64,000 bases of DNA, from the sequence record PP355091.1; one strand, 5' to 3'. The notes below the pieces were generated by a model, which was not told the origin of the DNA, ran no database searches, and was given only the letters and a program-made list of their open reading frames with translations. Numbering within the stretch: the first letter of the stretch is position 1; every line of letters begins with the position of its first letter. Of this stretch, positions 1 through 46,168 are shown piece after piece. The stretch is from Escherichia phage 235Ecol030PP. The translations under genes and the position numbers were made by a program.

Positions 1-1650
1 CATTTGAAGATGCTGACCATATTCTTGCGGGTCATGGTCTTTATGCGAAATTATAAAGACATTAGTGTTTTTCATTGAATTTATAATATTAGCTACACCT
101 TTAATACCTTCGGCATCAAATGACCCATCAAACACTTCATCGAGTATTAATGTACTAATACTAACACCAGATACGATAGAAGCAATATCACGCCAAGTAA
201 ATAAAAGAGCAATATCGATTCGTGCCTTTTCACCTTCACTAAATGAAGCATAACTAAAATCTTCACGACCACGGGATTTAATTGTCTCATTAAATTCTTC
301 ATCTAATGTAAACACATAATCCGCTTCCATTATTTTAAGATAATGGTTAATCTGCTTATTAAATAATGGAATGTACTTTTTAATAATAGCACCTTTAATA
401 CCAGAATCTTTGAGCATATCAGTCAAAATTCCTCGGTGGTATTTTTCCATTACTAAATTAGTTTTTGTCTTAACAATTTTATCAAGTTCTTCTTGAAGCA
501 GTGCTATTTCATCAGCATGGTCAATAAACTCAGAAGATGCTTTTTCTATAGCCGCTTTAACCTTTTTGGCTTTATCTACCGTCGTGATTAGAGATTGCTT
601 TTTATTGCGAATATCATTTGCCAACGACTGCTGGGTTTTAATATTATCTCGGTATTCATCAACAAGAACTTTTAAATTATCACGATGTGTTGAAAGCTGT
701 TCAAACGAATGCGTGCATTCAGAAACTTTATCTTTAATTTTAGAAACAACTTTATCACCGGAACTTAATTGTGACAAACAGGTTGGACATAATCCACCTT
801 CGTGATACATATTAATGACTTTATTATACGAGTCAATTTTTGATTTAATTAAAACTGCTTCTTGACCGATTTTATTAAATGCATCAGTCGGGTCTTCATC
901 TAAAACAATATTAACTAATCTTTCATTAGCTTCTTCTATTTCCGATTTTAGCGTTCTAGCTTCTTTTGCCAAATCATCATACATATTTTGAAGACGAGTA
1001 AGGTTGTCACCCGTTAATTTTTTCTGGCGTTCAACGTTATCATTATATATTTTAATTTGTTGGATAATACTATCTTTTTTAACATCAAGCACTTGGTTTT
1101 GTGAATTTAATTCACGTATTAGTGCTTTATTAAGCTTATCCATTTCAGCTAATGTTCCTACCTCAAGCAGGTCTTCCACAAGCTTTCTTCGCGCAGGGGT
1201 CGACAACCCCATGAAAGGGGTATACCCTGCTGTACCAAGGACAACAATCTGCTTGAAACTGGCATATGACATTCCGATAAGCTGTTCAAATTCTGCTTGG
1301 AAATCTTTACTGCTGGCAGATTCATTAAGACGTGTACCGTTAACGGTGATTTCAAAAACGTTCGGTTTTTGTCCTCTTTTGATATAGTACTTTTTCTCAT
1401 CATATTCCATCCACAGTTCAACTAAAAGTTCTTTCTTATTTGTGCTGTTTATTAATTGACCTTTCTTTACATCACGAAATGGCTTGCCAAAAAGCCCAAA
1501 TGTGATGGCTTCTAGCATAGTAGACTTACCACCGCCATTTCGTCCAGTAATAAGAGTTTTTTGAACCTTATCTAATTGAATGTCAACCCCATTTTGACCA
1601 ACTGACATTATATTTTTATATTTTACTCTATTAAGTTTAAAATTCTTCAC
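1..1650 (-). CDS. 46: Recombination endonuclease subunit gp46 (Rad50/SbcC-like ATPase); 3' end lies beyond window start
   Basis: Minus-strand translation from 1650 gives VKNFKLNRVKYKNIMSVGQNG...LITGRNGGGKST (Walker A), matching recalled T4 gp46 N-terminus; GTG start preceded by AAGGAA and an in-frame TAA; open to window edge. Confidence 0.85.
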   Translation of the reverse strand, partial: MKNFKLNRVKYKNIMSVGQNGVDIQLDKVQKTLITGRNGGGKSTMLEAITFGLFGKPFRDVKKGQLINSTNKKELLVELWMEYDEKKYYIKRGQKPNVFEITVNGTRLNESASSKDFQAEFEQLIGMSYASFKQIVVLGTAGYTPFMGLSTPARRKLVEDLLEVGTLAEMDKLNKALIRELNSQNQVLDVKKDSIIQQIKIYNDNVERQKKLTGDNLTRLQNMYDDLAKEARTLKSEIEEANERLVNIVLDEDPTDAFNKIGQEAVLIKSKIDSYNKVINMYHEGGLCPTCLSQLSSGDKVVSKIKDKVSECTHSFEQLSTHRDNLKVLVDEYRDNIKTQQSLANDIRNKKQSLITTVDKAKKVKAAIEKASSEFIDHADEIALLQEELDKIVKTKTNLVMEKYHRGILTDMLKDSGIKGAIIKKYIPLFNKQINHYLKIMEADYVFTLDEEFNETIKSRGREDFSYASFSEGEKARIDIALLFTWRDIASIVSGVSISTLILDEVFDGSFDAEGIKGVANIINSMKNTNVFIISHKDHDPQEYGQHLQM

Positions 1651-1910
1651 AAAAGATTCCTTTTAATGTATCTTTTAGACCATTCTATCATATCATCATA
1701 ATCTAAAAAGTATTCATCAAATTCAGCCATGCAAACAACACCTTGTGCTGCTTTTGATGTGATATAAATTATTCCAACATATCTAGAATCTTCTTCGGTG
1801 TAATCAATATTTGCTATGAATTCATCGTTAATGTCAAATGTCGAAAACTTCACAGTATGCATCCTTAATACAAGATACAGCCATATCTTGTAATGATTTA
1901 GGTGTGTCAT
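1647..1910 (-). CDS. Hypothetical small protein (46.1-like position); start uncertain, possibly internal Met near 1862
   Basis: 87-aa ORF in track, co-directional between genes 46 and 47; no motif recognised. Confidence 0.4.
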   Translation of the reverse strand: MTHLNHYKIWLYLVLRMHTVKFSTFDINDEFIANIDYTEEDSRYVGIIYITSKAAQGVVCMAEFDEYFLDYDDMIEWSKRYIKRNLL

Positions 1911-8839: not shown

Positions 8840-9310
8840 TTAATCATGTTTCCACACCCCATCGGTATTTGACCAAAGTCGCTGATTATCTGATCCTCGC
8901 CACAGCTTTTTAGTCGGAAGATTTTTCTCATACTTCCCATCAATAATAACATCAACATATTTAAGCATTTCTAGTTGTTTAATATCTTCAAACTTATATC
9001 CTGTCCACAACCAAATGCTTTTATTTGGATAAAGATTTTTTACTGTTTGAACAATGCAATGAATAACATCTCGATTATCAGGATAGAGAGGGTCACCTCC
9101 GGTTATAGTCAATCCTTCTATATAATCATTATTCAAACATTCAATTAATTGTTCTAGTGTTTCACCAGTGAATGGAATACCATTTCTAGCATTCCATGTT
9201 GATTTATTATAACACCCTTCGCATTTATGCAAACAACCTGTAACGAAAAGAACTGTCCTGCATCCAGGGCCATTCACAAAGCAGCACGGGTATATTCTGT
9301 CATAATTCAT
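8840..9310 (-). CDS. nrdG: Anaerobic ribonucleotide reductase activating protein NrdG (radical SAM)
   Basis: 156 aa; MNYDRIYPCCFVNGPGCRTVLFVTGCLHKCEGC (Cys cluster) and GGDPLY motif; adjacent to nrdD. Confidence 0.9.
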   Translation of the reverse strand: MNYDRIYPCCFVNGPGCRTVLFVTGCLHKCEGCYNKSTWNARNGIPFTGETLEQLIECLNNDYIEGLTITGGDPLYPDNRDVIHCIVQTVKNLYPNKSIWLWTGYKFEDIKQLEMLKYVDVIIDGKYEKNLPTKKLWRGSDNQRLWSNTDGVWKHD

Positions 9311-10139
9311 TTATATATTTCCAATTATAGCCTTCAACACTTTTACGTTCGCCATTTAAACATTTTAAAATATTTCCTTTGCTAGAAATATTAAAATATT
9401 TTGCTGCGTCTGGTATATAATTAAATGTTTTTAAAAGAACACCATCTTTATATGCGCCAAATAAATTAAGAGTATATTTTTCTCGAAGACGTTGATGTTT
9501 CCTTTTCATAACCTCAGGATTTGCATACGCCAACCTCAATGAATTTCTATGTTTTTCTTTTACTTCAGGTTTTTGCATTGCTAACTTAGTTAGCCTGGAA
9601 ATTTTATTTCTAACTTCGTCAGTTTTCATTGCATTTGACAAATTTAATAAAGTTTTATTTCTAACTTCAGGTTTTTGCATTGCTAACTTAGTTAGTTCTC
9701 TATGTCTTTTTCTAAAATCGTCATCCTTCCATATATTTTTCGATAATTTTGACATAGAGCGGTGAAATAATTCCTTTTCACCGGAATACAATTTAAGAAT
9801 TTCATCCAATTCATCTGTATTAAATCTATCGGTATTCGAGTTTATCATTCTATGAAAGGCATAACACATTTTACTATTACTTGTTTTAGCTAAATAGTAA
9901 TGAGCTAACGCGTGGTCATAATATGACAAATTAACAATATTCCATTTATCTGTTTTATATTCAGGAAATATAGATTTGGGAAGCACGTGATGTGCTTCCG
10001 TTTTTCCTTTTATTTTAGGATTATTATAATTTTTTGTTATCAAATCAACATATGACAATAGTAAATCATTATTTTCTTCAAATATTAAAGATAATTTATC
10101 ATTCACAAAATCGCAAGGATAAAATCTATCATAATTCAT
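9300..10139 (-). CDS. mobD: Free-standing HNH-family homing endonuclease (mobD-like) between nrdD and nrdG
   Basis: 279 aa; HNH core EAHHVLPKSIFPEYKTDKWNIVNLSYYDHALAHY; repeated KLAMQKPEV modules; start overlaps nrdD stop (ATGA), stop overlaps nrdG start; gene symbol by position only. Confidence 0.7.
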   Translation of the reverse strand: MNYDRFYPCDFVNDKLSLIFEENNDLLLSYVDLITKNYNNPKIKGKTEAHHVLPKSIFPEYKTDKWNIVNLSYYDHALAHYYLAKTSNSKMCYAFHRMINSNTDRFNTDELDEILKLYSGEKELFHRSMSKLSKNIWKDDDFRKRHRELTKLAMQKPEVRNKTLLNLSNAMKTDEVRNKISRLTKLAMQKPEVKEKHRNSLRLAYANPEVMKRKHQRLREKYTLNLFGAYKDGVLLKTFNYIPDAAKYFNISSKGNILKCLNGERKSVEGYNWKYINEL

Positions 10140-11415
10140 TGGTGTTTAACCCTATGCATGATTTCTTTATTTTTACCGAGATTAAATCCGCGTTCGTTCG
10201 GGTTTCCAAGATATCCGCATGTTCTTCTTATGGTGTTCATCTTTTTAGGATCAGTTTCTCCACAAATAGAACAAACAAATCCGTTTTCAGTAGGAGTCAT
10301 TTCATGGGTACTTCCACATGTAAAACATTTATCTACTGGCATATTAACACCAAAATAATCTAAATGCTGTGCAGCATAATCCCATACGGCCTCAAGACCT
10401 TTTAGGTTATTTTTCATATCAGGAAGTTCAACATAAGAAATGTGACCACCTGTCGCAATGAAATGATATGGGGCTTCGCGAGAAATCTTTTCAAACGGAG
10501 TAATATTTTCTTCTACTGAAACATGGAAACTGTTAGTGTACCAGCCTTTATCAGTAACATCTTTTACACTTCCATATTTTTCTGTATCAAGTTTACAGAA
10601 GCGATAACAAAGGTTTTCAGCAGGAGTCGAATACAAACTAAAAGCAAACCCAGTTCTTTCAGTCCACTGTTTAAGACGAGCATTCATTTTAGTTAAAATT
10701 TCTTGTCCAATATCACGACCGACAAGAATATTCAATTCATGAATACCAATGTATCCTAAAGACACTGAACTTCTGCCATTTTTAAATAACTCAATTATAT
10801 CGTCATCAGGTTTAAGACGAACCCCGAATGCACCTTCTTGGTAAAGAATAGGAGCAACAGTCGCTTTAACTCCTTTTAAGGAACTAATTCTACACATCAA
10901 TGCTTCAAAACATAAATCCATTCGTTCATTGAACAATTCAACAAATTTCTGTTCATTGAACTGTGTTCCAATATAAGAATCTAACGCAATACGAGGAAGA
11001 TTCAATGTTACAACGCCAAGATTATTACGTCCATCAAGAATTTCATTACCAGTCGAATCTTTCCATACGCTCAAGAAACTACGGCAACCCATTGGAGAAA
11101 CAGGAATAGATGAACCGGTGATAGCTTTATTGTTCTTAGCTGAAATAATATCAGGATACATTCTTTTGCTTGCACACTTTAGAGCAAGCTGCTTAATATC
11201 ATAGTTCGGATCGTCTTTGTAAAGATTAACGCCTTCTTCGACGAACATAACAAGCTTAGGGAAAATAGGAGTTATCCCATCACGACCAAGACCTTTAATA
11301 CGATTTTTCAGAATTGCTTTCTGAATCATTCGTTCAGTCCAGTCAGTTCCCGTACCAAATGTAATTGTTACAAAAGGAGTCTGTCCGTTTGAACTGAAAA
11401 GTGTATTTACTTCAT
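10136..11415 (-). CDS. nrdD: Anaerobic ribonucleotide reductase NrdD, exon 2 (3' splice site position approximate)
   Basis: Large ORF with class III RNR C-terminal region including glycyl-radical region; exon boundary inferred from expected ~605-aa length and a G at 11416; not experimentally defined. Confidence 0.75.
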
Positions 11416-12460
11416 CATTATATTCAGCATGAGTCGCAAATTCATGCTCGTTTATATGAAACAACAAAATTTGGATAGTCCATAGATATGCAACGTTCTT
11501 TTATAGTGCTAGGATGAAAATTTAGCGCTTTAGCTGCTTCTATATAAGACGTATACTTAATACCGTCAACAACCACATATTCAGGAACTTTATGAATAGT
11601 AGTCTTAATACTCAAAACAAGAGGATGAGTTTCGACTTCACTTTCAGTGCAATTTAAATATTCCGCTGCTTTTTTAAAACTTCTAAAAGTTTTATTTTTA
11701 AGCTTTATCGATACTTGTTTTTTACTTTTTCGACTATTGATATTATTTTGCACATGTTCCTTAGATCTTCCGTTTTTAGCATAATATTCAGCTACAGAAG
11801 ATTTTATATTGTTTTTATGAGATTCGGATAACACTTTACCCTTATGAGCATCTCTTAATTTTTGAATATGTTCTTCAGTATCCGGATGCTTATAAAACTT
11901 TTTACCGCCTATGGATTTATTTAAACATTTTTTGCTATAAAAATATTTACGTATGACCTCTTCTTCATGTTTTAATGCATCTTTATAACTATCAAATGTT
12001 TTTAAAATTATCCATTTAGTAGGTGTATCAGTTTTTAAGCGTTCATTTATATACTTAGATGACGTTGTGTAAGTTTTCCAGTTTGTGGGCTTGTTTTTAA
12101 TTGTTCTAAATTTTTTATAACCGATATAAATGTCGCCATTAGAAAACTTAACTAAGTATGTAAATGCGTCTTTATCTTTTATTTTAGTACAACGTCTTTT
12201 TATCCATTTCATTGTTTCACCTCGTATTCATAAGATAATCTTATTTATACAAGATGACTGCTGCATGTCGCCATGCAGATTAGACTATATCTTCATCTTT
12301 CGATGCCGGCCGTTTCGAATAGCATTAGCTTCTATTCTACACCGCTACATTCATCACGGTTAGTCGTTAGGCATTTAGTTCAAAAGAACATTTAGCACGG
12401 GATTGTCTACTAGAGAGGTTCCCCGTTTAGACCGGTTTTACATGAGCCTGAATTAAATTA
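11416..12460 (-). mobile_element. Group I self-splicing intron in nrdD (sunY-type) carrying I-TevII ORF; boundaries approximate (about +/-10 nt)
   Basis: nrdD reading frame interrupted by about 1 kb; contains GIY-YIG endonuclease ORF; putative P1 pairing (exon ...AUGAGU with intron GCUCAU) near 12461. Confidence 0.7.
11442..12212 (-). CDS. I-TevII: Intron-encoded homing endonuclease I-TevII
   Basis: 256 aa; MKWIKRRCTKIKDKDAFTYLVKFSNGDIYIGYKK... (GIY-YIG-type N-terminus); lies inside nrdD intron as in T4. Confidence 0.85.
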   Translation of the reverse strand: MKWIKRRCTKIKDKDAFTYLVKFSNGDIYIGYKKFRTIKNKPTNWKTYTTSSKYINERLKTDTPTKWIILKTFDSYKDALKHEEEVIRKYFYSKKCLNKSIGGKKFYKHPDTEEHIQKLRDAHKGKVLSESHKNNIKSSVAEYYAKNGRSKEHVQNNINSRKSKKQVSIKLKNKTFRSFKKAAEYLNCTESEVETHPLVLSIKTTIHKVPEYVVVDGIKYTSYIEAAKALNFHPSTIKERCISMDYPNFVVSYKRA

Positions 12461-12998
12461 ACTCATACGCCTGAAACGCGTCATAGACATCTTTTTCTGT
12501 TTTAGATTGAGCATAATTCAACGCATCAGCGATTTGCCATTTTTCTGCATCCTCAATATGTTTTGCATAGGTGCGTTTAACATAAGGAGAAAGTACTTTA
12601 TCTACATTCGCAAAAGTCGTTCCGCCATATTGATGGGAAGCAACCTGTGCAGTAATTTGTGCCATAATTGCAGTAGCAACGCCAATTGATTTAGGAGTTT
12701 CAATCTGTGCATTACCGAGCTTAAATCCGTTCTCAAGCATTCCTTTTAAATCTACTAAACAGCAATTAGTAAATGGAAGAGCAGGGGAATAATCAATATC
12801 GTGCACGTGAATAATTCCGCTTTCATGCGCTTTCATAATAAAAGACGGGACCATATTTTTGGCAATGTGTTTAGACACAATACCAGCCATAAGGTCCCGT
12901 TGAGTTGGAAAAACACGAGAATCTTTATTAGCATTCTCGTTTAAAAGGTCTTTATTAGTTTTATGAATCAATCCTTCAATTTCTTTTTCAATTGTCAT
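12461..12998 (-). CDS. nrdD: Anaerobic ribonucleotide reductase NrdD, exon 1 (5' splice site approximate)
   Basis: MTIEKEIEGLIHKTNKDLLNENANKDSRVFPTQRDLMAGIVSKH...; 4-nt overlap with gene 49 stop. Confidence 0.8.
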
Positions 12999-13468
12999 TT
13001 TAAACTCTTTCTAAGCTGCTTCTTAAATGAAGCTATTAACTGTGTTTTGGTGTCAGATTCATTATATTCAAATCCTCTTTGAAGCATCTCGGCCATCATT
13101 TCCTCTTTTCCTAAACGAGAAAATTCCTTTGATTTATCTCCAACAAAGTTAGGGTGAATATTATTTTGGGTGTAATCGGATTTTAAATAAGTAAGTAAAT
13201 TTTCTAACCATTCAAGATAATCAACACCTTGTCCCTTTAAGCCAGAACGATTAAATTTATGCTTCATTTGACCTTCTGCGGCATTGCAGAGATTACAAAG
13301 CAATCCACGCACCTTTCCTGCTTTTGGTCCATTTAATTCATGGTCATGGTCGAGGTGATTAGCTTGAACATCAGGATTTAGTTCTCGTTGGCAAATTAAG
13401 CATTTACCGTTTTGTGCATTATAAAATTTCTGTTTTTCTTCTTTATATAATTTGCCAGTCAATAACAT
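12995..13468 (-). CDS. 49: Endonuclease VII (Holliday junction resolvase) gp49
   Basis: 157 aa; MLLTGKLYKEEKQKFYNAQNGKCLICQRELNPDVQANHLDHDHELNGPKAGKVRGLLCNLCN matches recalled T4 endo VII. Confidence 0.9.
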   Translation of the reverse strand: MLLTGKLYKEEKQKFYNAQNGKCLICQRELNPDVQANHLDHDHELNGPKAGKVRGLLCNLCNAAEGQMKHKFNRSGLKGQGVDYLEWLENLLTYLKSDYTQNNIHPNFVGDKSKEFSRLGKEEMMAEMLQRGFEYNESDTKTQLIASFKKQLRKSLK

Positions 13469-13507: not shown

Positions 13508-13556
13508 TTTTCAAGTATTGTAAAACATTCGATGCAATCGTTTATACTGTCGAATC
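13508..13556. repeat. Direct repeat copy 1 (49 bp; partner at 13721-13769)
   Basis: ttttcaagtattgtaaaacattcgatgcaatcgtttatactgtcgaatc versus copy 2 with about 4 mismatches; covers the last 14 codons and stop of two different ORFs. Confidence 0.8.
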
Positions 13557-13687
13557 ATCTTTTTAGTAGGACGAGAATAGGTTCCTACGCAAGTGGTCAT
13601 ATGAGGGTCCGTAGAATGTCCTTTAATAAAAAGTTTCCAAACCTTACCGCCATTTAACTTTTCAGTATAAACCAATTCGGTTTTCAT
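13511..13687 (-). CDS. Small ORF (58 aa) sharing its C-terminal 14 residues with the next gene via a direct repeat
   Basis: MKTELVYTEKLNGGKVWKLFIKGHSTDPHMTTCVGTYSRPTKKMIRQYKRLHRMFYNT; AAGG 8 nt upstream of ATG; not in ORF track. Confidence 0.35.
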   Translation of the reverse strand: MKTELVYTEKLNGGKVWKLFIKGHSTDPHMTTCVGTYSRPTKKMIRQYKRLHRMFYNT

Positions 13688-13720: not shown

Positions 13721-13769
13721 TTTTCAAGTATTGTAAAACATTTGATGCAATCGCTTATATTGCCGAATC
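13721..13769. repeat. Direct repeat copy 2 (49 bp; partner at 13508-13556)
   Basis: ttttcaagtattgtaaaacatttgatgcaatcgcttatattgccgaatc. Confidence 0.8.
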
Positions 13770-14227
13770 TTTTGGTCAGAAAAAGAAATTTGATTTTCAA
13801 GCCATTCAATGTATTCTGCGGCAGCTTGCATCAGGTTACCTTCATAGCCATCGTTATTTTCTTGTGCAGCTAATTTAGCTAATGCGTATGAAATACGTTC
13901 ACCTTGAAAATCGGCTTTAGGCTTCTGAACAACTTGATTAGTTTGCTCTACAACTTCTTCAATTTCGCCATTTTCTACTGATTCAGTATTCCACAAACAC
14001 CAATACGTAATTGGCTTATCGTAGATGTTAATAATCTTTCCATCAGAAAGTTCAATTTCAATAATTCCAGTATCAGGTTCTATATCATCTTCACATTCTT
14101 TTGCAAGTTCACGAACTTTAAAGACAGTACCTGCACTAAGTTCCGGCCAGTAATTACATAGCCCTGTATCAGCACGATTAATTCTAAACCACTTATCTAC
14201 TGTAATCATGTCCCATCTCCATATCAA
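13724..14227 (-). CDS. Hypothetical protein (occupies the T4 pin position; identity not established)
   Basis: 167-aa ORF; C-terminus IRQYKRLHQMFYNT duplicated in the small ORF downstream. Confidence 0.5.
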   Translation of the reverse strand: MIWRWDMITVDKWFRINRADTGLCNYWPELSAGTVFKVRELAKECEDDIEPDTGIIEIELSDGKIINIYDKPITYWCLWNTESVENGEIEEVVEQTNQVVQKPKADFQGERISYALAKLAAQENNDGYEGNLMQAAAEYIEWLENQISFSDQKIRQYKRLHQMFYNT

Positions 14228-38898: not shown

Positions 38899-38974
38899 TG
38901 GTCGAGGCAGTAGGGATCGAACCTACGACCCAGGACTTAGAAGGTCCTTGCTCTTCCTTCTGAGCTATGCCCCG
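38899..38974 (-). tRNA. tRNA-Arg (anticodon TCT), CCA encoded
   Basis: Manual fold: acceptor CGGGGCA/TGCCTCG, anticodon stem AGGAC/GTCCT, loop CUUCUAA, T-arm GTAGG-TTCGATC-CCTAC; 76 nt. Confidence 0.85.
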
Positions 38975-38977
38975 TAA

Positions 38978-39643
38978 TTAAAATTTCATTTTTCGACCTT
39001 TAAACCATCCTTCTGGAATTGGGTCAGTTTTCTTAATACGTTTAGAAACTTTTTCATCTAATGAATGAATCCACATCATACCAAATTGGGAATTCTTTTC
39101 GCCCTGTTGATGTTTATTTCTGGCGTGAGATTCTTTCATTTTATTAATAGTTTCAGGAGTATGATGCTTATTTAAAAATCTGCTATTATTTAAAAATTTT
39201 TCCCTGTATTCAGGAGTTGACCACAAGCGTTTAAATACATTTGAACCATGTTTACGATATTTTTCTTGAAGTAAAATATCATTTTTAAAACGTGACTTAA
39301 ACGATTTAGCTCCTTTTAAGCTAGCATCTTTCTTCTGGTTTAGCATCCCAGGAATATTTACATGATCCCATCCACCTTCACCACCAAGTTTTAAATTATA
39401 CACATCTGGTCTATTTAAAAACTCTTCTGTGACAATATTTTTCTCGGCTTCAAGCATAGATTCTTTATCGTCAAAGAACTCTAATATTTCTTTAGAAAAA
39501 TTTTCTATACCATACTTATCTTGGGCTCTTTTTAATAATTTACCAGAACCCATATATCCATCATCTAAATTTTCGGTAGAATGAGCGCCTATATAGATTT
39601 TATTATTAATTTTATTTGTTATTTTATAAATGTAATGGAACAT
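38978..39643 (-). CDS. segB: GIY-YIG homing endonuclease SegB within tRNA cluster
   Basis: 221 aa; MFHYIYKITNKINNKIYIGAHS (GIY-YIG) N-terminus; located between tRNA-Arg and main tRNA cluster as in T4. Confidence 0.85.
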   Translation of the reverse strand: MFHYIYKITNKINNKIYIGAHSTENLDDGYMGSGKLLKRAQDKYGIENFSKEILEFFDDKESMLEAEKNIVTEEFLNRPDVYNLKLGGEGGWDHVNIPGMLNQKKDASLKGAKSFKSRFKNDILLQEKYRKHGSNVFKRLWSTPEYREKFLNNSRFLNKHHTPETINKMKESHARNKHQQGEKNSQFGMMWIHSLDEKVSKRIKKTDPIPEGWFKGRKMKF

Positions 39644-39684
39644 AAATATCTCCTATTTCTAAGAGTATTTATGTTCTCAAAATA

Positions 39685-39756
39685 TGGCCCTGGGTGGAAT
39701 TGAACCACCATCTGGCGATTATGAGTCGCTTGCTTGAACCTTCCAGCTACAGGGCC
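39685..39756 (-). tRNA. tRNA-Ile (anticodon CAT; Met-type anticodon, assigned Ile by T4 precedent), CCA not encoded
   Basis: Acceptor GGCCCTG/CAGGGCC, anticodon loop CUCAUAA, T-arm GGTGG-TTCAATT-CCACC; 72 nt. Confidence 0.8.
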
Positions 39757-39762
39757 TTGATA

Positions 39763-39835
39763 TGCTGATTGACGGAATCGAACCGCCGACGTCCTCATTA
39801 CAAGTGAGGTGCTCTACCTACTGAGCTAAATCAGC
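39763..39835 (-). tRNA. tRNA-Thr (anticodon TGT), CCA not encoded
   Basis: Acceptor GCTGATT/AATCAGC, anticodon stem CCTCA/TGAGG loop CUUGUAA; 73 nt. Confidence 0.85.
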
Positions 39836-39842
39836 GAAATTA

Positions 39843-39929
39843 CGGAGGCGATAGGATTTGAACCTATGAGTCGCCGGAGCGACTGCCGGTTTTCAAGACC
39901 GGTGCATTAAACCACTCTGCCACGCCTCC
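39843..39929 (-). tRNA. tRNA-Ser (anticodon TGA), long variable arm, CCA not encoded
   Basis: Acceptor GGAGGCG/CGCCTCC, anticodon stem CCGGT/ACCGG loop CUUGAAA; 87 nt. Confidence 0.85.
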
Positions 39930-39931
39930 AG

Positions 39932-40005
39932 TCTCCGTGGCAGGATTTGAACCTACGACATTCTGCTCCCAAAGCAGACGCTCTACCAAACTGAGCTACA
40001 CGGAG
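39932..40005 (-). tRNA. tRNA-Pro (anticodon TGG), CCA not encoded; separated from tRNA-Ser by 2 nt
   Basis: Acceptor CTCCGTG/CACGGAG, anticodon stem TCTGC/GCAGA loop UUUGGGA; 74 nt. Confidence 0.85.
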
Positions 40006-40017
40006 TAAATTAAATTT

Positions 40018-40089
<72 letters not shown>

Positions 40090-40095
40090 AAACTT

Positions 40096-40182
40096 TGGTA
40101 CGAGAAGTGGGACTCGAACCCACAAGGAAATCATTCCGCAGCATTTTAAGTGCTGTGTCTTTACCAATTTGACCATTCTCGC
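40096..40182 (-). tRNA. tRNA-Leu (anticodon TAA), long variable arm, CCA encoded
   Basis: Acceptor GCGAGAA/TTCTCGT, anticodon stem CAGCA/TGCTG loop CUUAAAA; 87 nt. Confidence 0.85.
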
Positions 40183-40183
40183 G

Positions 40184-40256
40184 CTGGGAATAAAGGACTC
40201 GAACCTTTGCATCCTGGAATCAAAATCCAGTGCCTTACCAACTTGGCTAATTCCCA
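40184..40256 (-). tRNA. tRNA-Gln (anticodon TTG), CCA not encoded; 1 nt from tRNA-Leu
   Basis: Acceptor TGGGAAT/ATTCCCA, anticodon stem CTGGA/TCCAG loop UUUUGAU; 73 nt. Confidence 0.85.
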
Positions 40257-44253: not shown

Positions 44254-45078
44254 TTAGATATTTGACCAGACTTTGTTTGCAGAGAAACGTTTTCCTTTTG
44301 AAACGAACTGCTGAAGTGGCATTAACACAACGTTCGCCCAGTCTTTCGGGGCGATTTCAACAAGGCTACCCATAATATTACCAGGTATATATGCCTTAAT
44401 CATTTGATCTGCACCCCTAAATCCTTTCACTTGACTCCAATCAATTTTTAATTTCGTTTTATTAGTAATAGTAGGTGTATTTGCATATTGCTTTAAAAGC
44501 TCTTCTAGGAATTGCTGACGAGCTTTAGGTGGAATATAGTGCAAGTTTAATCCGTACATTAAATTATGCTTACCTAAACCGAGGTAAATTATCAAAGGAA
44601 ATTTATCCCAGTAAGGAAGAGTTTCCTTGTGTTTAGCGTCATAAGCAAAAGCATATATTCGTCCCGGCTGCGGGCGAACAACTTTATGTCCTTTTACTTG
44701 CTTAATAGTTTCAGCAAACCACTTTCTGGTTTTATTATTAATTGCTGCGCCTTCATTACGAATTTTATCACGCAATGTTTGCCTGAATGAATTTATCATA
44801 AGCAGTTGTCTTTCTTGCTTATTGAGTTTATTCATTGGTTTTGATTCAAGCTTTTGAATCTTTTCAGCCGTTTTAATTCCTGAAGCATATTTTGACATTG
44901 CCGAAGTAAACGTGGAGTATTTAATTCCTCTTTCTTCAGCAAATTGCTTTCCTGTCATTCCTTTTGCTTTGGCCTTTTTATATTCAAGACCTATCTGAAT
45001 CCATTTCTTTTCGTTTAATGATTGCTTAACCTTTGGAACTTGGGGAGTGCTTTCATTAATTATTTGAAAAATAGCCAT
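44254..45078 (-). CDS. 2: DNA end protector protein gp2
   Basis: 274 aa; synteny 4-2-3-1. Confidence 0.85.
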
Positions 45079-45530
45079 TATGCCCCCTTAAAGCCAAGAG
45101 CTCGTAATCCATCTTCTGTTAGAATTCTAAATTTTATTCCACGCTTTTCAGCTAAAGCTTGCGCTGCTTTCCATTTGTCGGTATTAACAGAATATGTATA
45201 AATTTCATTCATAAATCTTTTCTTCGCTGCGGTTGTTAGATGTGCTGGTTTAACCGGTGGTTGTGTTTCTTTTTTAGGTTTTATTTCAATAAAAAATTCT
45301 TGTCCAGAAGAATCTTTCATCCAAATATCCATGAAGTATCTACGTTTTTTCCCTTCTGCATTACAAAAATAAGGAATTACTGCTGTTTCACTACCCCATG
45401 CAATAATTTCTGGATTTTTATCTAACCATTCAAAAAAGAATTTTTCCCAATTTGATCTATACGTAATTTTTTTAGGGTCACCTCTATACTTTGATATATT
45501 TTTAGGAACCCATTTTCCAGAATATGCCAT
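45078..45530 (-). CDS. 4: Head completion protein gp4
   Basis: 150 aa; late promoter upstream on minus strand. Confidence 0.85.
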
Positions 45531-45541
45531 TGGATTCTCCT

Positions 45542-45549
45542 TATAAATA
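45542..45549 (+). promoter_or_regulatory. T4 late promoter TATAAATA for gene 53
   Basis: Exact TATAAATA about 29 nt upstream of gene 53 ATG. Confidence 0.65.
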
Positions 45550-45556
45550 GATAATA

Positions 45557-45564
45557 TATTTATA
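45557..45564 (-). promoter_or_regulatory. T4 late promoter TATAAATA (minus strand) for gene 4
   Basis: Exact TATAAATA on minus strand about 27 nt upstream of gene 4 ATG; divergent with 45542-45549. Confidence 0.65.
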
Positions 45565-45577
45565 AACAGGAGGGCCC

Positions 45578-46168
45578 ATGCTCTTTACATTTTTTGATCC
45601 GATTGAATATGCGGCCAAAACGGTGAATAAAAACGCGCCGACTATTCCTATGACAGATATTTTTAGAAACTATAAAGACTATTTTAAACGCGCTCTTGCG
45701 GGATACCGCTTACGTACTTATTATATCAAAGGTTCACCACGCCCGGAAGAATTAGCAAATACTATATATGGAAATCCACAGTTGTATTGGGTTTTATTGA
45801 TGTGTAATGATAATTATGACCCGTATTATGGATGGATTACTTCACAAGAAGCAGCTTATCAAGCATCTATACAAAAATACAAAAATGTAGGTGGAGACCA
45901 AATAGTATATCATGTGAATGAGAACGGTGAAAAATTTTATAATTTAATATCATACGATGATAATCCATATGTTTGGTATGATAAAGGTGATAAAGCTAGA
46001 AAATATCCTCAATATGAAGGAGCACTTGCTGCTGTTAATACGTATGAAGATGCTGTTCTTGAAAATGAAAAACTTCGTCAAATAAAAATAATAGCAAAAT
46101 CAGACATTAATTCATTTATGAACGACCTTATACGTATAATGGAGAAATCTTATGGAAATGATAAGTAA
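45578..46168 (+). CDS. 53: Baseplate wedge protein gp53
   Basis: 196 aa; synteny before gene 5. Confidence 0.9.
   Translation: MLFTFFDPIEYAAKTVNKNAPTIPMTDIFRNYKDYFKRALAGYRLRTYYIKGSPRPEELANTIYGNPQLYWVLLMCNDNYDPYYGWITSQEAAYQASIQKYKNVGGDQIVYHVNENGEKFYNLISYDDNPYVWYDKGDKARKYPQYEGALAAVNTYEDAVLENEKLRQIKIIAKSDINSFMNDLIRIMEKSYGNDK

What the first reader, a model, noticed from the sequence alone, without database searches (positions are those of the whole stretch)
11416..12460. Group I intron with I-TevII splits nrdD; predicted splice boundaries
nrdD is interrupted by about 1045 nt containing the GIY-YIG endonuclease ORF. I predict the 5' splice site after ...GCGTATGAGT (minus strand, exon 1 ending at 12461), with P1 pairing AUGAGU to GCUCAU, and the 3' splice site after a G at 11416. 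This would join ...DAFQAYE-Y-EVNTLF... Both boundaries are inferences.
Basis: partly seen in the sequence, partly recalled or inferred. Interest (0 to 1): 0.4.

Follow-up and report, generated by a model that had tools for sequence, protein, structure and literature searches.

The report
Self-splicing intron in phage nrdD gene

Summary
Confirmed. On the minus strand, nrdD (12998..10136) is interrupted by a 1045-nt insert, 12460..11416. A local Rfam scan finds a group I core at 12492..12261 (72.7 bits against a threshold of 50, E 3e-18); two whole-window scans missed it. Both predicted splice sites hold. The 5' site follows a U·G pair in P1 (AUGAGU/GCUCAU). The 3' site follows G11416. The spliced 605-aa protein matches crystallised T4 NrdD 1-605 without gaps, and about 620 intronless phage genomes are colinear with the predicted junction. 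The insertion site is the same as in T4.

One correction: this is not the T4 allele. The intron is 66% identical to T4's, and the 256-aa ORF is only 56% identical to I-TevII, although I-TevII is its closest full-length relative. This allele is about 99.6-100% conserved in roughly 44 phage records from two genera. Silent exon markers travel with it, and decayed copies exist, all as expected for a homing element. Its core is a mosaic of segments best matching other phage introns.

This is textbook biology with a new member; interest is modest. Splicing and endonuclease activity are inferred, not shown.

The parts
12461..12998 (-). nrdD exon 1 (538 nt; 179 codons plus the first base of the Tyr180 codon). 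If unspliced, the frame stops after two further codons (ELI*).
   Evidence: 96.5% identical to T4 exon 1. The product matches PDB 1h78 residues 1-179.
11416..12460 (-). Group I intron, 1045 nt, at the same insertion site as the T4 nrdD (sunY) intron.
   Evidence: T4 has a 1033-nt intron at the homologous point.
12442..12466 (-). P1: exon AUGAGU (12466..12461) pairs with the internal guide GCUCAU (12447..12442), with U12461·G12447 at the 5' splice site. UUCA (12452..12449) can pair with exon 2 UGAA (11414..11411) as P10.
   Evidence: Direct reading. P1 pairing is kept in four of the five aligned introns; the td row is misaligned there. P10 is an inference.
12261..12435 (-). Catalytic core: P3, P4, P5, P6/P6a, P7 (a pseudoknot, GACUA/UAGUC), P7.1, P7.2, P8 and P9.
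   Evidence: Rfam RF00028, 72.7 bits. On a 5-intron alignment, 95.4% of cells pair and 23 of 52 pairs show changes on both sides, against 33-41% paired in slid controls.
12217..12257 (-). Hairpin (-17.3 kcal/mol) that buries the Shine-Dalgarno GAGG (12223..12220) of the endonuclease ORF. A T4 late-promoter box TATAAATA (12249..12242) lies in its 5' arm, so late transcripts would lack that arm.
   Evidence: Fold (the T4 equivalent is -15.5). A late-promoter box is annotated just upstream of the same ORF in phage SA20RB. The mechanism is described for I-TevI, II and III in PMC2988022.
12219..12234 (-). CTTATGAATAcGAgGT: a 14/16 copy of the intronless nrdD junction sequence (CTTATGAATATGAAGT), overlapping the ribosome-binding site. 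A candidate operator for autorepression.
   Evidence: It is the only match with 2 or fewer mismatches in the window; 0.13 are expected by chance. The I-TevI precedent and a putative I-TevII operator are described in PMC2988022. Function is inferred.
11442..12212 (-). Homing-endonuclease ORF, 256 aa, an I-TevII homologue. It lies downstream of P9, not in P6a.
   Evidence: 56% identity to T4 I-TevII, E 1e-101. Pfam SegE_GIY-YIG and NUMOD1 both pass their cut-offs. dN/dS against I-TevII is 0.24. 100% identical copies occur in many phages.
11426..11448 (-). 3'-terminal hairpin (P9.2-like), AGCAUGA/UCAUGCU, which contains the ORF stop codon UGA (11444..11442).
   Evidence: Fold. T4 has GUAGAG/CUCUAC and td GGUAAG/CUUAUC at the same place, so the stem sequence differs while the pairing is kept.
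11416..11418 (-). A11418 and U11417 (candidate P9.0, pairing with A12280 and U12279 in J7/9), followed by the terminal G11416 (omega-G) at the 3' splice site.
   Evidence: Window: AU with AU. T4: UU with AA. td: AU with AU. The Si3 intron does not fit, so P9.0 remains an inference.
10136..11415 (-). nrdD exon 2 (1280 nt including the stop codon).
   Evidence: 96.0% identical to T4 exon 2.
12461..12489 (-). Exon-1 tract of silent differences from T4 at -29, -26, -23, -20, -17, -14, -11 and -8. The next 100 nt upstream are 100/100 identical to T4. The markers -11G and -8G travel with this intron type in all 8 carriers examined.
11394..11415 (-). Exon-2 tract (+1..+22) shared by all 8 carriers examined. 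The silent markers +14A, +17T and +20C distinguish it from the 3 intronless phages examined.

Best explanation
The insert at 12460..11416 (minus strand) is a self-splicing group I intron of the phage IA type, with P7.1 and P7.2 present and no P2. It sits in nrdD at the same site as the T4 nrdD (sunY) intron but is a different allele.

Inferred mechanism, taken from the group I chemistry established for the T4 homologue:
- The core at 12435..12261 folds.
- Exogenous guanosine attacks after U12461, which is held in P1 by a U·G pair.
- The remote 3' end, about 800 nt downstream, is brought in by the 3'-terminal hairpin, a 2-bp P9.0 and a 4-bp P10.
- G11416 enters the G-binding site and the exons are joined, restoring the Tyr180 codon and a 605-aa NrdD.

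The 256-aa ORF between P9 and the 3' domain encodes an I-TevII-like endonuclease. Three inferences apply to it. It is silent on early nrdD transcripts because a hairpin buries its ribosome-binding site. It is made late from a TATAAATA promoter inside that hairpin. It cuts intronless nrdD near the junction, so that repair copies the intron and a few dozen flanking bases into the recipient (homing).

Shown here: the core, the boundaries, the homology, the distribution and the linked exon markers. Not shown: splicing and cleavage activity.
For: - Rfam group I hit of 72.7 bits against a threshold of 50.
- The region is colinear with T4 nrdD, with an insert at the identical site. The T4 CDS there is annotated as a two-piece join with I-TevII inside it.
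- The spliced product equals PDB T4 NrdD 1-605 without gaps.
- About 620 intronless phage records are colinear with the predicted junction.
- On the 5-intron alignment, 95.4% of cells pair and 23 pairs change on both sides. No shuffle out of 500 reached these values, and slid controls gave 33-41%.
- The stems of P3, P6a, P7.1 and P7.2 and of the 3' hairpin differ between the window and T4 while still pairing.
- The HEG is 56% identical to I-TevII over its full length, and dN/dS is 0.24.
- The allele is 99.6-100% identical in every full-length copy listed. The sampled carriers include both Tequatrovirus and Mosigvirus phages.
- Linked silent exon markers occur in all 8 carriers sampled, with variable outer endpoints.
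- Decayed copies exist: a 558-nt HEG deletion in phage 215Ecol030PP and a split ORF in phages F1 and FN.
- An RBS hairpin, a late-promoter box and a junction-like operator lie upstream of the ORF, as described for the T4 intron endonucleases in PMC2988022.
Against: - No RNA or enzyme data exist for this allele.
- Two whole-window Rfam scans did not report the core.
- The Rfam hit starts 32 nt inside exon 1 and ends at P9, so it does not itself define either splice site.
- The GIY-YIG assignment is marginal in Pfam, and the catalytic Glu could not be placed reliably by alignment with I-TevI.
- P9.0, P10 and any P9.1 rest on two or three sequence types, and the Si3 intron does not fit the P9.0 scheme.
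- Part of the exon-1 tract (-29..-17) also occurs in an intronless Mosigvirus phage. Only -11, -8, +14, +17 and +20 are strictly linked to the intron.
Confidence: 0.93

Rival explanations
1. The intron splices, but its endonuclease is now inactive, a relic. The element would persist by vertical descent and ordinary recombination rather than by active homing.
For: HEG decay does occur in this allele: a 558-nt deletion in phage 215Ecol030PP and a split ORF in phages F1 and FN. The GIY-YIG motif is degenerate (FTY...YIG) and Pfam support is marginal.
Against: The ORF is intact here and 100% identical in many phages. dN/dS against I-TevII is 0.24. The expression signals are kept. The allele is about 99.6-100% identical in two genera whose flanks differ. 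All of this fits recent spread.
Confidence: 0.15
2. There is no splicing. nrdD would be a truly split gene whose two polypeptides reassemble, as reported for the nrdA gene of Aeromonas phage Aeh1 split by mobE (from my own knowledge). Most public records annotate two separate CDSs here.
For: Public records annotate exon 1 and a TTG-started exon 2 as separate genes. A TTG at 11467 opens a 443-aa ORF.
Against: A complete group I core with supporting covariation is present. The U·G, the omega-G and the exact codon restoration are all in place. The TTG lies inside the endonuclease ORF. The homologous T4 CDS is annotated as spliced.
Confidence: 0.02
3. The intron is real but uses a different 3' splice site, for example the next G at 11413, or a shifted 5' site.
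For: The two AUG repeats (AAUGAUGAAG) offer a second G three bases downstream. P10 and P9.0 are short.
Against: Splicing at 11413 would create a UAA stop immediately (T+AA). Only the junction 12461|11415 reproduces the NrdD sequence and the intronless DNA. The boundaries are homologous to those of T4.
Confidence: 0.02

Closest known systems
Phage T4 nrdD (sunY) group I intron with I-TevII
   Same: The gene and the exact insertion site are the same, within the Tyr180 codon. So are P1 (AUGAGU/GCUCAU), the absence of P2, the ORF placed after P9, the remote 3' splice site with a small 3' hairpin, and the late-promoter box and RBS hairpin before the ORF. The NrdD product has the same length, 605 aa.
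   Different: The intron is 1045 nt against 1033 nt. Overall identity is 66%: the core is 71% and the ORF 63% at the nucleotide level and 56% at the protein level. The stems of P3, P6a, P7.1, P7.2 and P8 and of the 3' hairpin are different sequences. The RBS hairpin carries a 9-nt insert. The silent exon markers differ. The T4 type was found in 25 records, including U5, PST, RB55 and RB59. The window type is in about 44 other records, with no intermediates.
Phage T4/RB3 td group I intron with I-TevI
   Same: The core architecture is the same phage IA type. Intron nt 30-71 (P4-P6) are 42/42 identical to the td intron. The candidate P9.0 dinucleotides are the same (AU/AU), and the tail is of the ...UGAAYAUAAUG type.
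   Different: It sits in a different host gene, has a P2, and carries its ORF in the P6a loop. I-TevI is only about 24% identical in a global alignment.
nrdD introns of Felixounavirus (e.g. Salmonella phage Si3) and Vibrio phage 1.084.O
   Same: The host gene is also nrdD and the cores are closely related. Intron nt 83-124 are 41/42 identical to Si3, and nt 85-204 are 85% identical to the Vibrio phage intron, including the same 9-nt P7.2 loop.
   Different: The insertion site differs (after ...SPMG, before Cys, about 110 codons downstream). The ORFs lie in P6a and are of other kinds (HNH, or winged helix-turn-helix).
SPO1/SP82 DNA-polymerase introns with I-HmuI/I-HmuII (Goodrich-Blair and Shub 1996, cited in PMC2988022)
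   Same: Two related phage groups carry homologous introns at one site, encoding diverged endonucleases of the same family. This is the precedent for competition between intron alleles. The comparison rests on my own knowledge plus the reference list seen.
   Different: Those enzymes are HNH nickases of Bacillus phages. No evidence here shows that the window-type enzyme cuts T4-type DNA.

Membership tests
Group I intron (Rfam RF00028; phage IA-type) | The conserved catalytic core (P3-P9) scores above the family threshold | tested here: met
   72.7 bits against a gathering score of 50, E 3.2e-18, in the local scan. It was not reported by the whole-window scans.
Group I intron (Rfam RF00028; phage IA-type) | Helices supported by compensatory changes, including the P3/P7 pseudoknot | tested here: met
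   95.4% of cells pair and 23 of 52 pairs change on both sides. No shuffle out of 500 reached this, and slid controls gave 33-41%. P7 (GACUA/UAGUC) is invariant, so it says nothing either way. There are only 5 sequences, and the structure was drawn from the window sequence.
Group I intron (Rfam RF00028; phage IA-type) | U·G wobble closing P1 at the 5' splice site | tested here: met
   U12461·G12447. The same pair is present in T4, Si3 and the Vibrio phage intron.
Group I intron (Rfam RF00028; phage IA-type) | A terminal G (omega-G) at the 3' end, positioned by P9.0 and P10 | tested here: inconclusive
   G11416 is present and is fixed by the protein and DNA junction. P9.0 (2 bp) covaries among the window, T4 and td introns but does not fit Si3. 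P10 is 4 bp. The role of P9.0 and omega-G is described in PMC11417360.
Group I intron (Rfam RF00028; phage IA-type) | P7.1/P7.2 extension between P7 and P3' (subgroup IA) | tested here: met
   P7.1 is ACCG/CGGU and P7.2 is GAAUAG/CUAUUC, both with compensatory differences from T4.
Group I intron (Rfam RF00028; phage IA-type) | Guanosine-dependent self-splicing | not testable with these tools
   Needs in vitro transcription and splicing, or RT-PCR.
T4 nrdD (sunY) intron lineage | Same insertion site in nrdD | tested here: met
   Global alignment with T4. Both split the Tyr180 codon as T|AT.
T4 nrdD (sunY) intron lineage | ORF placed downstream of P9, with a remote 3' splice site | tested here: met
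   The ORF is at 12212..11442, after P9 ends at 12261. In td, Si3 and the Vibrio phage intron the ORF is in P6a.
T4 nrdD (sunY) intron lineage | The same allele as T4 (T4-type copies are 99.2% or more identical to each other) | tested here: not met
   66% identity over 96% of the intron. All 25 T4-type records are 99.2% or more identical to T4. The window is therefore a sister allele, not the T4 intron.
I-TevII (T4 intron-associated endonuclease 2) | Full-length sequence homology to I-TevII | tested here: met
   56% identity, 72% positives, E 1e-101 over 256 aa. Conservation is even across the N-terminal, linker and C-terminal parts: 57, 59 and 53%.
I-TevII (T4 intron-associated endonuclease 2) | Being the same enzyme | tested here: not met
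   There are two discrete clades, one at 95% identity or more to the window and one at about 56% (the T4 type), with nothing between them.
I-TevII (T4 intron-associated endonuclease 2) | GIY-YIG catalytic domain | tested here: inconclusive
   PF19835 SegE_GIY-YIG scores 26.6 bits against a cut-off of 25 (E 7e-6), and PF01541 has E 0.9. The motif reads FTY...(9 residues)...YIG. The catalytic Glu could not be placed reliably. I-TevII is classed as GIY-YIG in PMC2988022.
I-TevII (T4 intron-associated endonuclease 2) | Double-strand cleavage of intronless nrdD near the insertion site | not testable with these tools
   Needs purified protein and a cleavage assay.
Mobile (homing) intron | Sporadic distribution among close relatives, with near-identical copies | tested here: met
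   About 44 window-type, 25 T4-type and about 620 intronless records. Listed window-type copies are 99.6-100% identical. Carriers include Tequatrovirus and Mosigvirus phages.
Mobile (homing) intron | Co-conversion of flanking exon markers | tested here: met
   -11G, -8G, +14A, +17T and +20C are present in all 8 carriers and absent from the 3 intronless phages. The outer endpoints vary. Against T4, the adjacent 30 nt are 22/30 and 25/30 identical, while the next 100 nt on each side are 100/100.
Mobile (homing) intron | Demonstrated homing in crosses | not testable with these tools
   Needs mixed infections.

The most novel reading that the evidence does not exclude
Two diverged intron/endonuclease cassettes, the T4 type and the window type, occupy the same nrdD site in natural T-even populations and may compete for it. 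The window-type enzyme, with its own linked silent exon markers around the expected cleavage region, might have altered cleavage or recognition properties. Those could let it displace or resist the T4-type allele, analogous to I-HmuI and I-HmuII in SPO1 and SP82.

The window-type ribozyme may also be a natural product of domain shuffling between co-resident phage introns. Its P4-P6 is 42/42 identical to td, its P6'-P7.1 is 41/42 identical to Felixounavirus nrdD introns, and its P7.2 loop is shared with a Vibrio phage intron. Such shuffling between td and sunY was produced in the laboratory in T4 by Bryk and Belfort in 1990 (from my own knowledge).
Probability: 0.2. Interest if true: 0.55.

Novelty: new member of a known kind. 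Interest (0 to 1): 0.3.

Why it matters
Three practical points follow.

1. **Annotation.** In nearly all public genomes that carry this allele, nrdD is annotated as two separate genes, with the second started at a TTG inside the intron. The exact splice coordinates given here allow a correct joined 605-aa CDS.

2. **Method.** A covariance scan of the whole 64-kb window misses this bona fide group I intron, while a local scan finds it easily. Negative whole-window scans should not be used to reject intron calls.

3. **Biology.** The classic T4 nrdD/I-TevII system turns out to have a widespread sister allele. This allele has a 56%-identical endonuclease, a mosaic ribozyme core, intron-linked exon markers with variable endpoints, and natural decay intermediates. 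Together these form a ready-made natural data set for studying the homing cycle, intron-intron recombination and possible competition between endonuclease alleles at one site.

Tried and rejected
- **Whole-window Rfam scans.** The gathering scan and the E-value 1e-3 scan returned only tRNAs. The miss is attributed to the search filters, because the local scan scores well above threshold.
- **Rfam hit boundaries.** They were not used as splice sites. The model forces its P1/P2 onto exon sequence and stops at P9.
- **A long-range P9.1.** One candidate pairs UGAAACAAUG (12218..12209, spanning the ORF start) with UGUUGUUUCA near the ORF end. It is 10 bp in both the window and T4 but has no double compensatory change. 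The T4 GUUUAU/AUAAAC pairing has no counterpart in the window. This remains unresolved and is not claimed.
- **P9.0.** The scheme fits the window, T4 and td introns but not the Si3 intron, so it is kept as an inference only.
- **Catalytic residues.** Alignment with I-TevI to place Arg27, Glu75 and Asn90 was unreliable at 24% identity, so no residue-level claim is made.
- **Exon-1 tract.** Treating the whole -29..-8 tract as intron-linked was rejected, because an intronless Mosigvirus phage (AlbertHofmann) carries the -29..-17 states.
- **Other introns.** A search for a further group I S-element (AAGATATAGTC) elsewhere in the window found only the one in this intron.
- **Literature.** The original I-TevII cleavage paper (PMC331075) is not held. 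The cleavage position, 13-15 nt downstream of the insertion site, is from memory only. Literature searches found no paper describing this second allele.
- **Not run, judged unnecessary.** The large protein-database searches and structure prediction.
Full report
**Context.** The window is a T4-like (Tevenvirinae) phage genome. Around the finding, the minus strand carries gene 49 (endonuclease VII, 13468..12995). Then come an ORF matching the N-terminus of NrdD (12998..12453), a 256-aa ORF (12212..11442), an ORF matching the rest of NrdD (to 10136) and an HNH endonuclease ORF (10139..9300). The region aligns colinearly with T4 nrdD at 85% overall. In T4 that CDS is annotated as a two-piece join with I-TevII inside it.

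**Observation check.** The sequence at the stated coordinates is as described. Exon 1 ends ...GCGTATGAGT at 12461. The insert runs from 12460 (TAATTT...) to 11416 (...AATATAATG), which is 1045 nt. Exon 2 starts ATGAAGTAAAT at 11415.
- A local Rfam scan of 11300..12560 finds RF00028 (group I intron) at 12492..12261 on the minus strand, with 72.7 bits against a gathering score of 50 and E 3.2e-18.
- Two scans of the whole window, one at gathering thresholds and one at E 1e-3 or better, did not report it. I read this as a filter effect.

**Boundaries.** Three independent lines fix them.
- *Homology with T4.* In the global alignment, the 1033-nt T4 intron (T4 record 45847..44815) starts and ends at the homologous bases. 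T4 exon 1 ends ...GCTTATGAGT and T4 exon 2 begins ATGAAGTG. The arithmetic agrees: the T4 CDS span of 2851 nt minus 1818 coding nt gives 1033, and the window span of 2863 minus 1818 gives 1045.
- *The protein.* Exons joined at 12461|11415 encode 605 aa. These align 1-605 to 1-605, without gaps, to crystallised T4 NrdD (1h78 and others), including DAFQAYEYEVNTLF. Because the Tyr codon is split T|AT, and the neighbouring bases are T on the intron's 5' side and G on its 3' side, no shifted pair of sites reproduces this sequence.
- *Intronless DNA.* A 300-nt spliced-junction query is covered at 80% or more in one place in 620 phage records. Every intronless record listed aligns in a single piece, mostly at 93-96% identity. 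Three of them (RB14, PYps11T, AlbertHofmann) were inspected base by base.

**RNA structure.** I assigned the helices by hand from the sequence.
- P3: CCGGUC/GGCCGG.
- P4: ACGGG/CCCGU.
- P5: UCU/AGA.
- P6: GC/GC, and P6a: GUUC-UUUU-GAAC.
- P7: GACUA/UAGUC, which forms a pseudoknot.
- P7.1: ACCG/CGGU.
- P7.2: GAAUAG/CUAUUC.
- P8: CAUC-GAAA-GAUG.
- P9: CUGCAUG-GCGA-CAUGCAG.

I tested these on an alignment of five related phage introns. They were the window and T4 nrdD introns, the Salmonella phage Si3 and Vibrio phage 1.084.O nrdD introns, and the RB3 td intron. The P6a ORFs of the last three were removed first.
- 95.4% of cells form standard pairs, and 23 of 52 pairs carry changes on both sides.
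- None of 500 shuffles reached these values. Sliding the partners by 1-3 columns drops pairing to 33-41%.
- Caveats: there are only five sequences, the structure was drawn from the window sequence, and MAFFT misaligns P8 and the td P1/P2.

Between the window and T4 alone, the stems of P3, P6a, P7.1 and P7.2 are different sequences that still pair. There is no P2, and P7.1/P7.2 are present, as in the T4 introns.

**The 3' end.** The ORF lies after P9, so the 3' splice site is about 845 nt from the core.
- The last 33 nt form a hairpin, AGCAUGA-AUUUGCGAC-UCAUGCU (11448..11426), which contains the ORF stop codon. It is followed by GAAUAUAAUG.
- T4 has GUAGAG/CUCUAC and td GGUAAG/CUUAUC at the same place, again different stems that pair.
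- The two bases before the terminal G can pair with J7/9 (candidate P9.0). In the window this is A11418-U12279 and U11417-A12280. T4 has UU with AA, and td has AU with AU. That is one compensatory change, but the Si3 intron does not fit, so P9.0 stays an inference. The general role of P9.0 and omega-G is described in PMC11417360.
- P10 can form as exon-2 UGAA (11414..11411) with UUCA (12452..12449).
- I could not establish a P9.1.

**The ORF.** The 256-aa product is 56% identical (72% similar, E 1e-101) to T4 I-TevII over its whole length, evenly across the N-terminal, linker and C-terminal parts.
- Pfam gives SegE_GIY-YIG (26.6 bits, cut-off 25) and NUMOD1 (25.3 bits, cut-off 22.8). The generic GIY-YIG model is not significant.
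- A tblastn search of 50,697 phage records finds two discrete groups. About 44 records are 95% or more identical to the window and about 25 are at 56% (the T4 type). Nothing lies between them. All other hits are about 31-34% identical over the N-terminal domain only.
- So I-TevII is its closest relative, but it is not I-TevII.
- dN/dS against I-TevII is 0.24, with dS about 1.6 and saturated. For nrdD itself the ratio is 0.02 with dS 0.19. The ORF has therefore evolved as a protein and is far older than the host-gene divergence.

**Expression signals (inferred function).** Between P9 and the ORF, 12257..12217 folds into a hairpin of -17.3 kcal/mol that pairs the Shine-Dalgarno GAGG. The T4 equivalent is -15.5. 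A T4 late-promoter box, TATAAATA (12249..12242), sits in the 5' arm, so a late transcript would lack that arm and expose the ribosome-binding site. The review PMC2988022 describes this arrangement for I-TevI, II and III. A late-promoter box is also annotated just upstream of the same ORF in phage SA20RB. Overlapping the ribosome-binding site, CTTATGAATAcGAgGT (12234..12219) matches 14 of 16 bases of the intronless junction. It is the only such match in the window, where 0.13 are expected by chance. The same review describes junction-like operators, proven for I-TevI and putative for I-TevII.

**Distribution and mobility.**
- The window-type intron covers 80% or more of the query in about 43 records, and every full-length copy listed is 99.6-100% identical. 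Sampled carriers include both Tequatrovirus and Mosigvirus phages.
- The T4 type is in 25 records (T4 isolates, PST, RB55, RB59, U5, fPS-2, G8, EC128, Manna), all 99.2% or more identical to T4.
- About 620 records are intronless.
- Against T4, the host gene is 100/100 identical at -31..-130 and at +31..+130. It is only 22/30 and 25/30 identical in the 30 nt adjoining the intron, and every difference is silent.
- I compared 8 carriers with 3 intronless phages. The markers -11G, -8G, +14A, +17T and +20C are always linked to this intron type. G at -2, which P1 needs, is shared with T4. Markers further out (-29..-14 and beyond +22) are patchy, with different endpoints in different phages.
- Part of the outer exon-1 tract also occurs in an intronless Mosigvirus phage, so only the inner markers are strictly intron-linked.
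- Decay intermediates exist. Phage 215Ecol030PP has the same intron with a 558-nt internal ORF deletion (479 nt remain). Phages F1 and FN have a 1-nt longer intron and a split ORF.
- All of this is what the homing cycle predicts, but no cross or enzyme assay exists for this allele.

**Mosaic core.** By segment, the window intron is closest to different introns.

| Segment | Closest intron | Identity |
|---|---|---|
| P1/guide region | T4 nrdD | 21/25 |
| P3-P6 | td | 43/47, including a 42/42 run at nt 30-71 |
| P6'-P7-P7.1 | Si3 nrdD | 40/41 |
| P7.2 | Vibrio phage nrdD | 14/21, same 9-nt loop |

The Si3 and Vibrio phage introns lie at another nrdD site (after ...SPMG) and carry their ORFs in P6a. 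Exchange of domains between phage introns is a plausible cause. Strong conservation of core elements is the alternative. I did not run a formal recombination test.

**Comparison with what is known, and novelty.** The element works like, and is a sister allele of, the T4 nrdD (sunY) intron with I-TevII. It fails the test of being that allele or that enzyme. Some public annotations already call the ORF 'homing endonuclease' or 'intron-associated endonuclease 2', while most split nrdD into two CDSs. Literature searches found no description of this second allele. From memory, the 2004 survey by Sandegren and Sjöberg found the nrdD intron only in T4 and U5, and the U5 copy is T4-type here. I rate it a new member of a known kind.

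**Verdict.** The finding is correct in all its coordinates. Interest is modest (0.3). It lies in the allele-level biology and in the two practical lessons about annotation and covariance-scan filters.

Noticed in passing
window 12261..12492 (-): Rfam scans of the whole 64-kb window, at gathering thresholds and at E 1e-3 or better, do not report the group I intron. A 1.26-kb local scan scores it at 72.7 bits, above the threshold of 50. Negative whole-window scans are therefore unreliable for ORF-bearing phage introns.
   Followed up: yes
window 12431..12390 and 12378..12337 (-): The intron core is a mosaic. Nt 30-71 are 42/42 identical to the td intron of RB3, T6 and others. Nt 83-124 are 41/42 identical to the nrdD introns of Felixounavirus phages. 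The P7.2 loop AAGCUAAUG is shared with a Vibrio phage intron. T4's own nrdD intron differs in all three segments.
   Followed up: partly
L007 (PP328843.1, phage 215Ecol030PP) 748..1226; L015 (phage F1): These are natural decay forms of the same intron allele. One has a 558-nt internal deletion of the endonuclease ORF, leaving a 479-nt intron. In phages F1 and FN the intron is 1 nt longer (1046 nt) and the ORF is split in two.
   Followed up: partly
L005 (Salmonella phage Si3) about 928..1654; L006 (Vibrio phage 1.084.O) from about 1370: Other phage families carry related group I introns in nrdD at a different site, after ...SPMG and before Cys. Their ORFs are an HNH endonuclease (Si3) or a winged helix-turn-helix protein (Vibrio phage), both in the P6a loop. 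The 3' end of the Vibrio phage intron was not determined.
   Followed up: partly
window 9300..10139 (-): A 279-aa HNH plus NUMOD-like endonuclease ORF sits in the mobC position between nrdD and nrdG, overlapping the nrdD stop codon as ATGA. It shares only 38% identity over 60 aa (the HNH motif) with the 210-aa T4 MobC, so this is a different free-standing endonuclease at the same locus.
   Followed up: partly
window 13511..13687 (-) and 13724..14227 (-): A 58-aa ORF between pin and gene 49 ends in IRQYKRLHRMFYNT. That is almost the same as the C-terminus of the upstream Pin-like ORF (IRQYKRLHQMFYNT), which suggests a partial duplication or an insertion scar. T4 has no ORF there.
   Followed up: no
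window 11467 (-); public records: Most public genomes with this allele annotate nrdD as two CDSs. The second starts at a TTG inside the intron and overlaps the 3' end of the endonuclease ORF. This looks like an annotation artefact of unrecognised splicing.
   Followed up: yes
window 38902..40256 (-): A cluster of eight tRNA genes, as in the T4 tRNA region.
   Followed up: no
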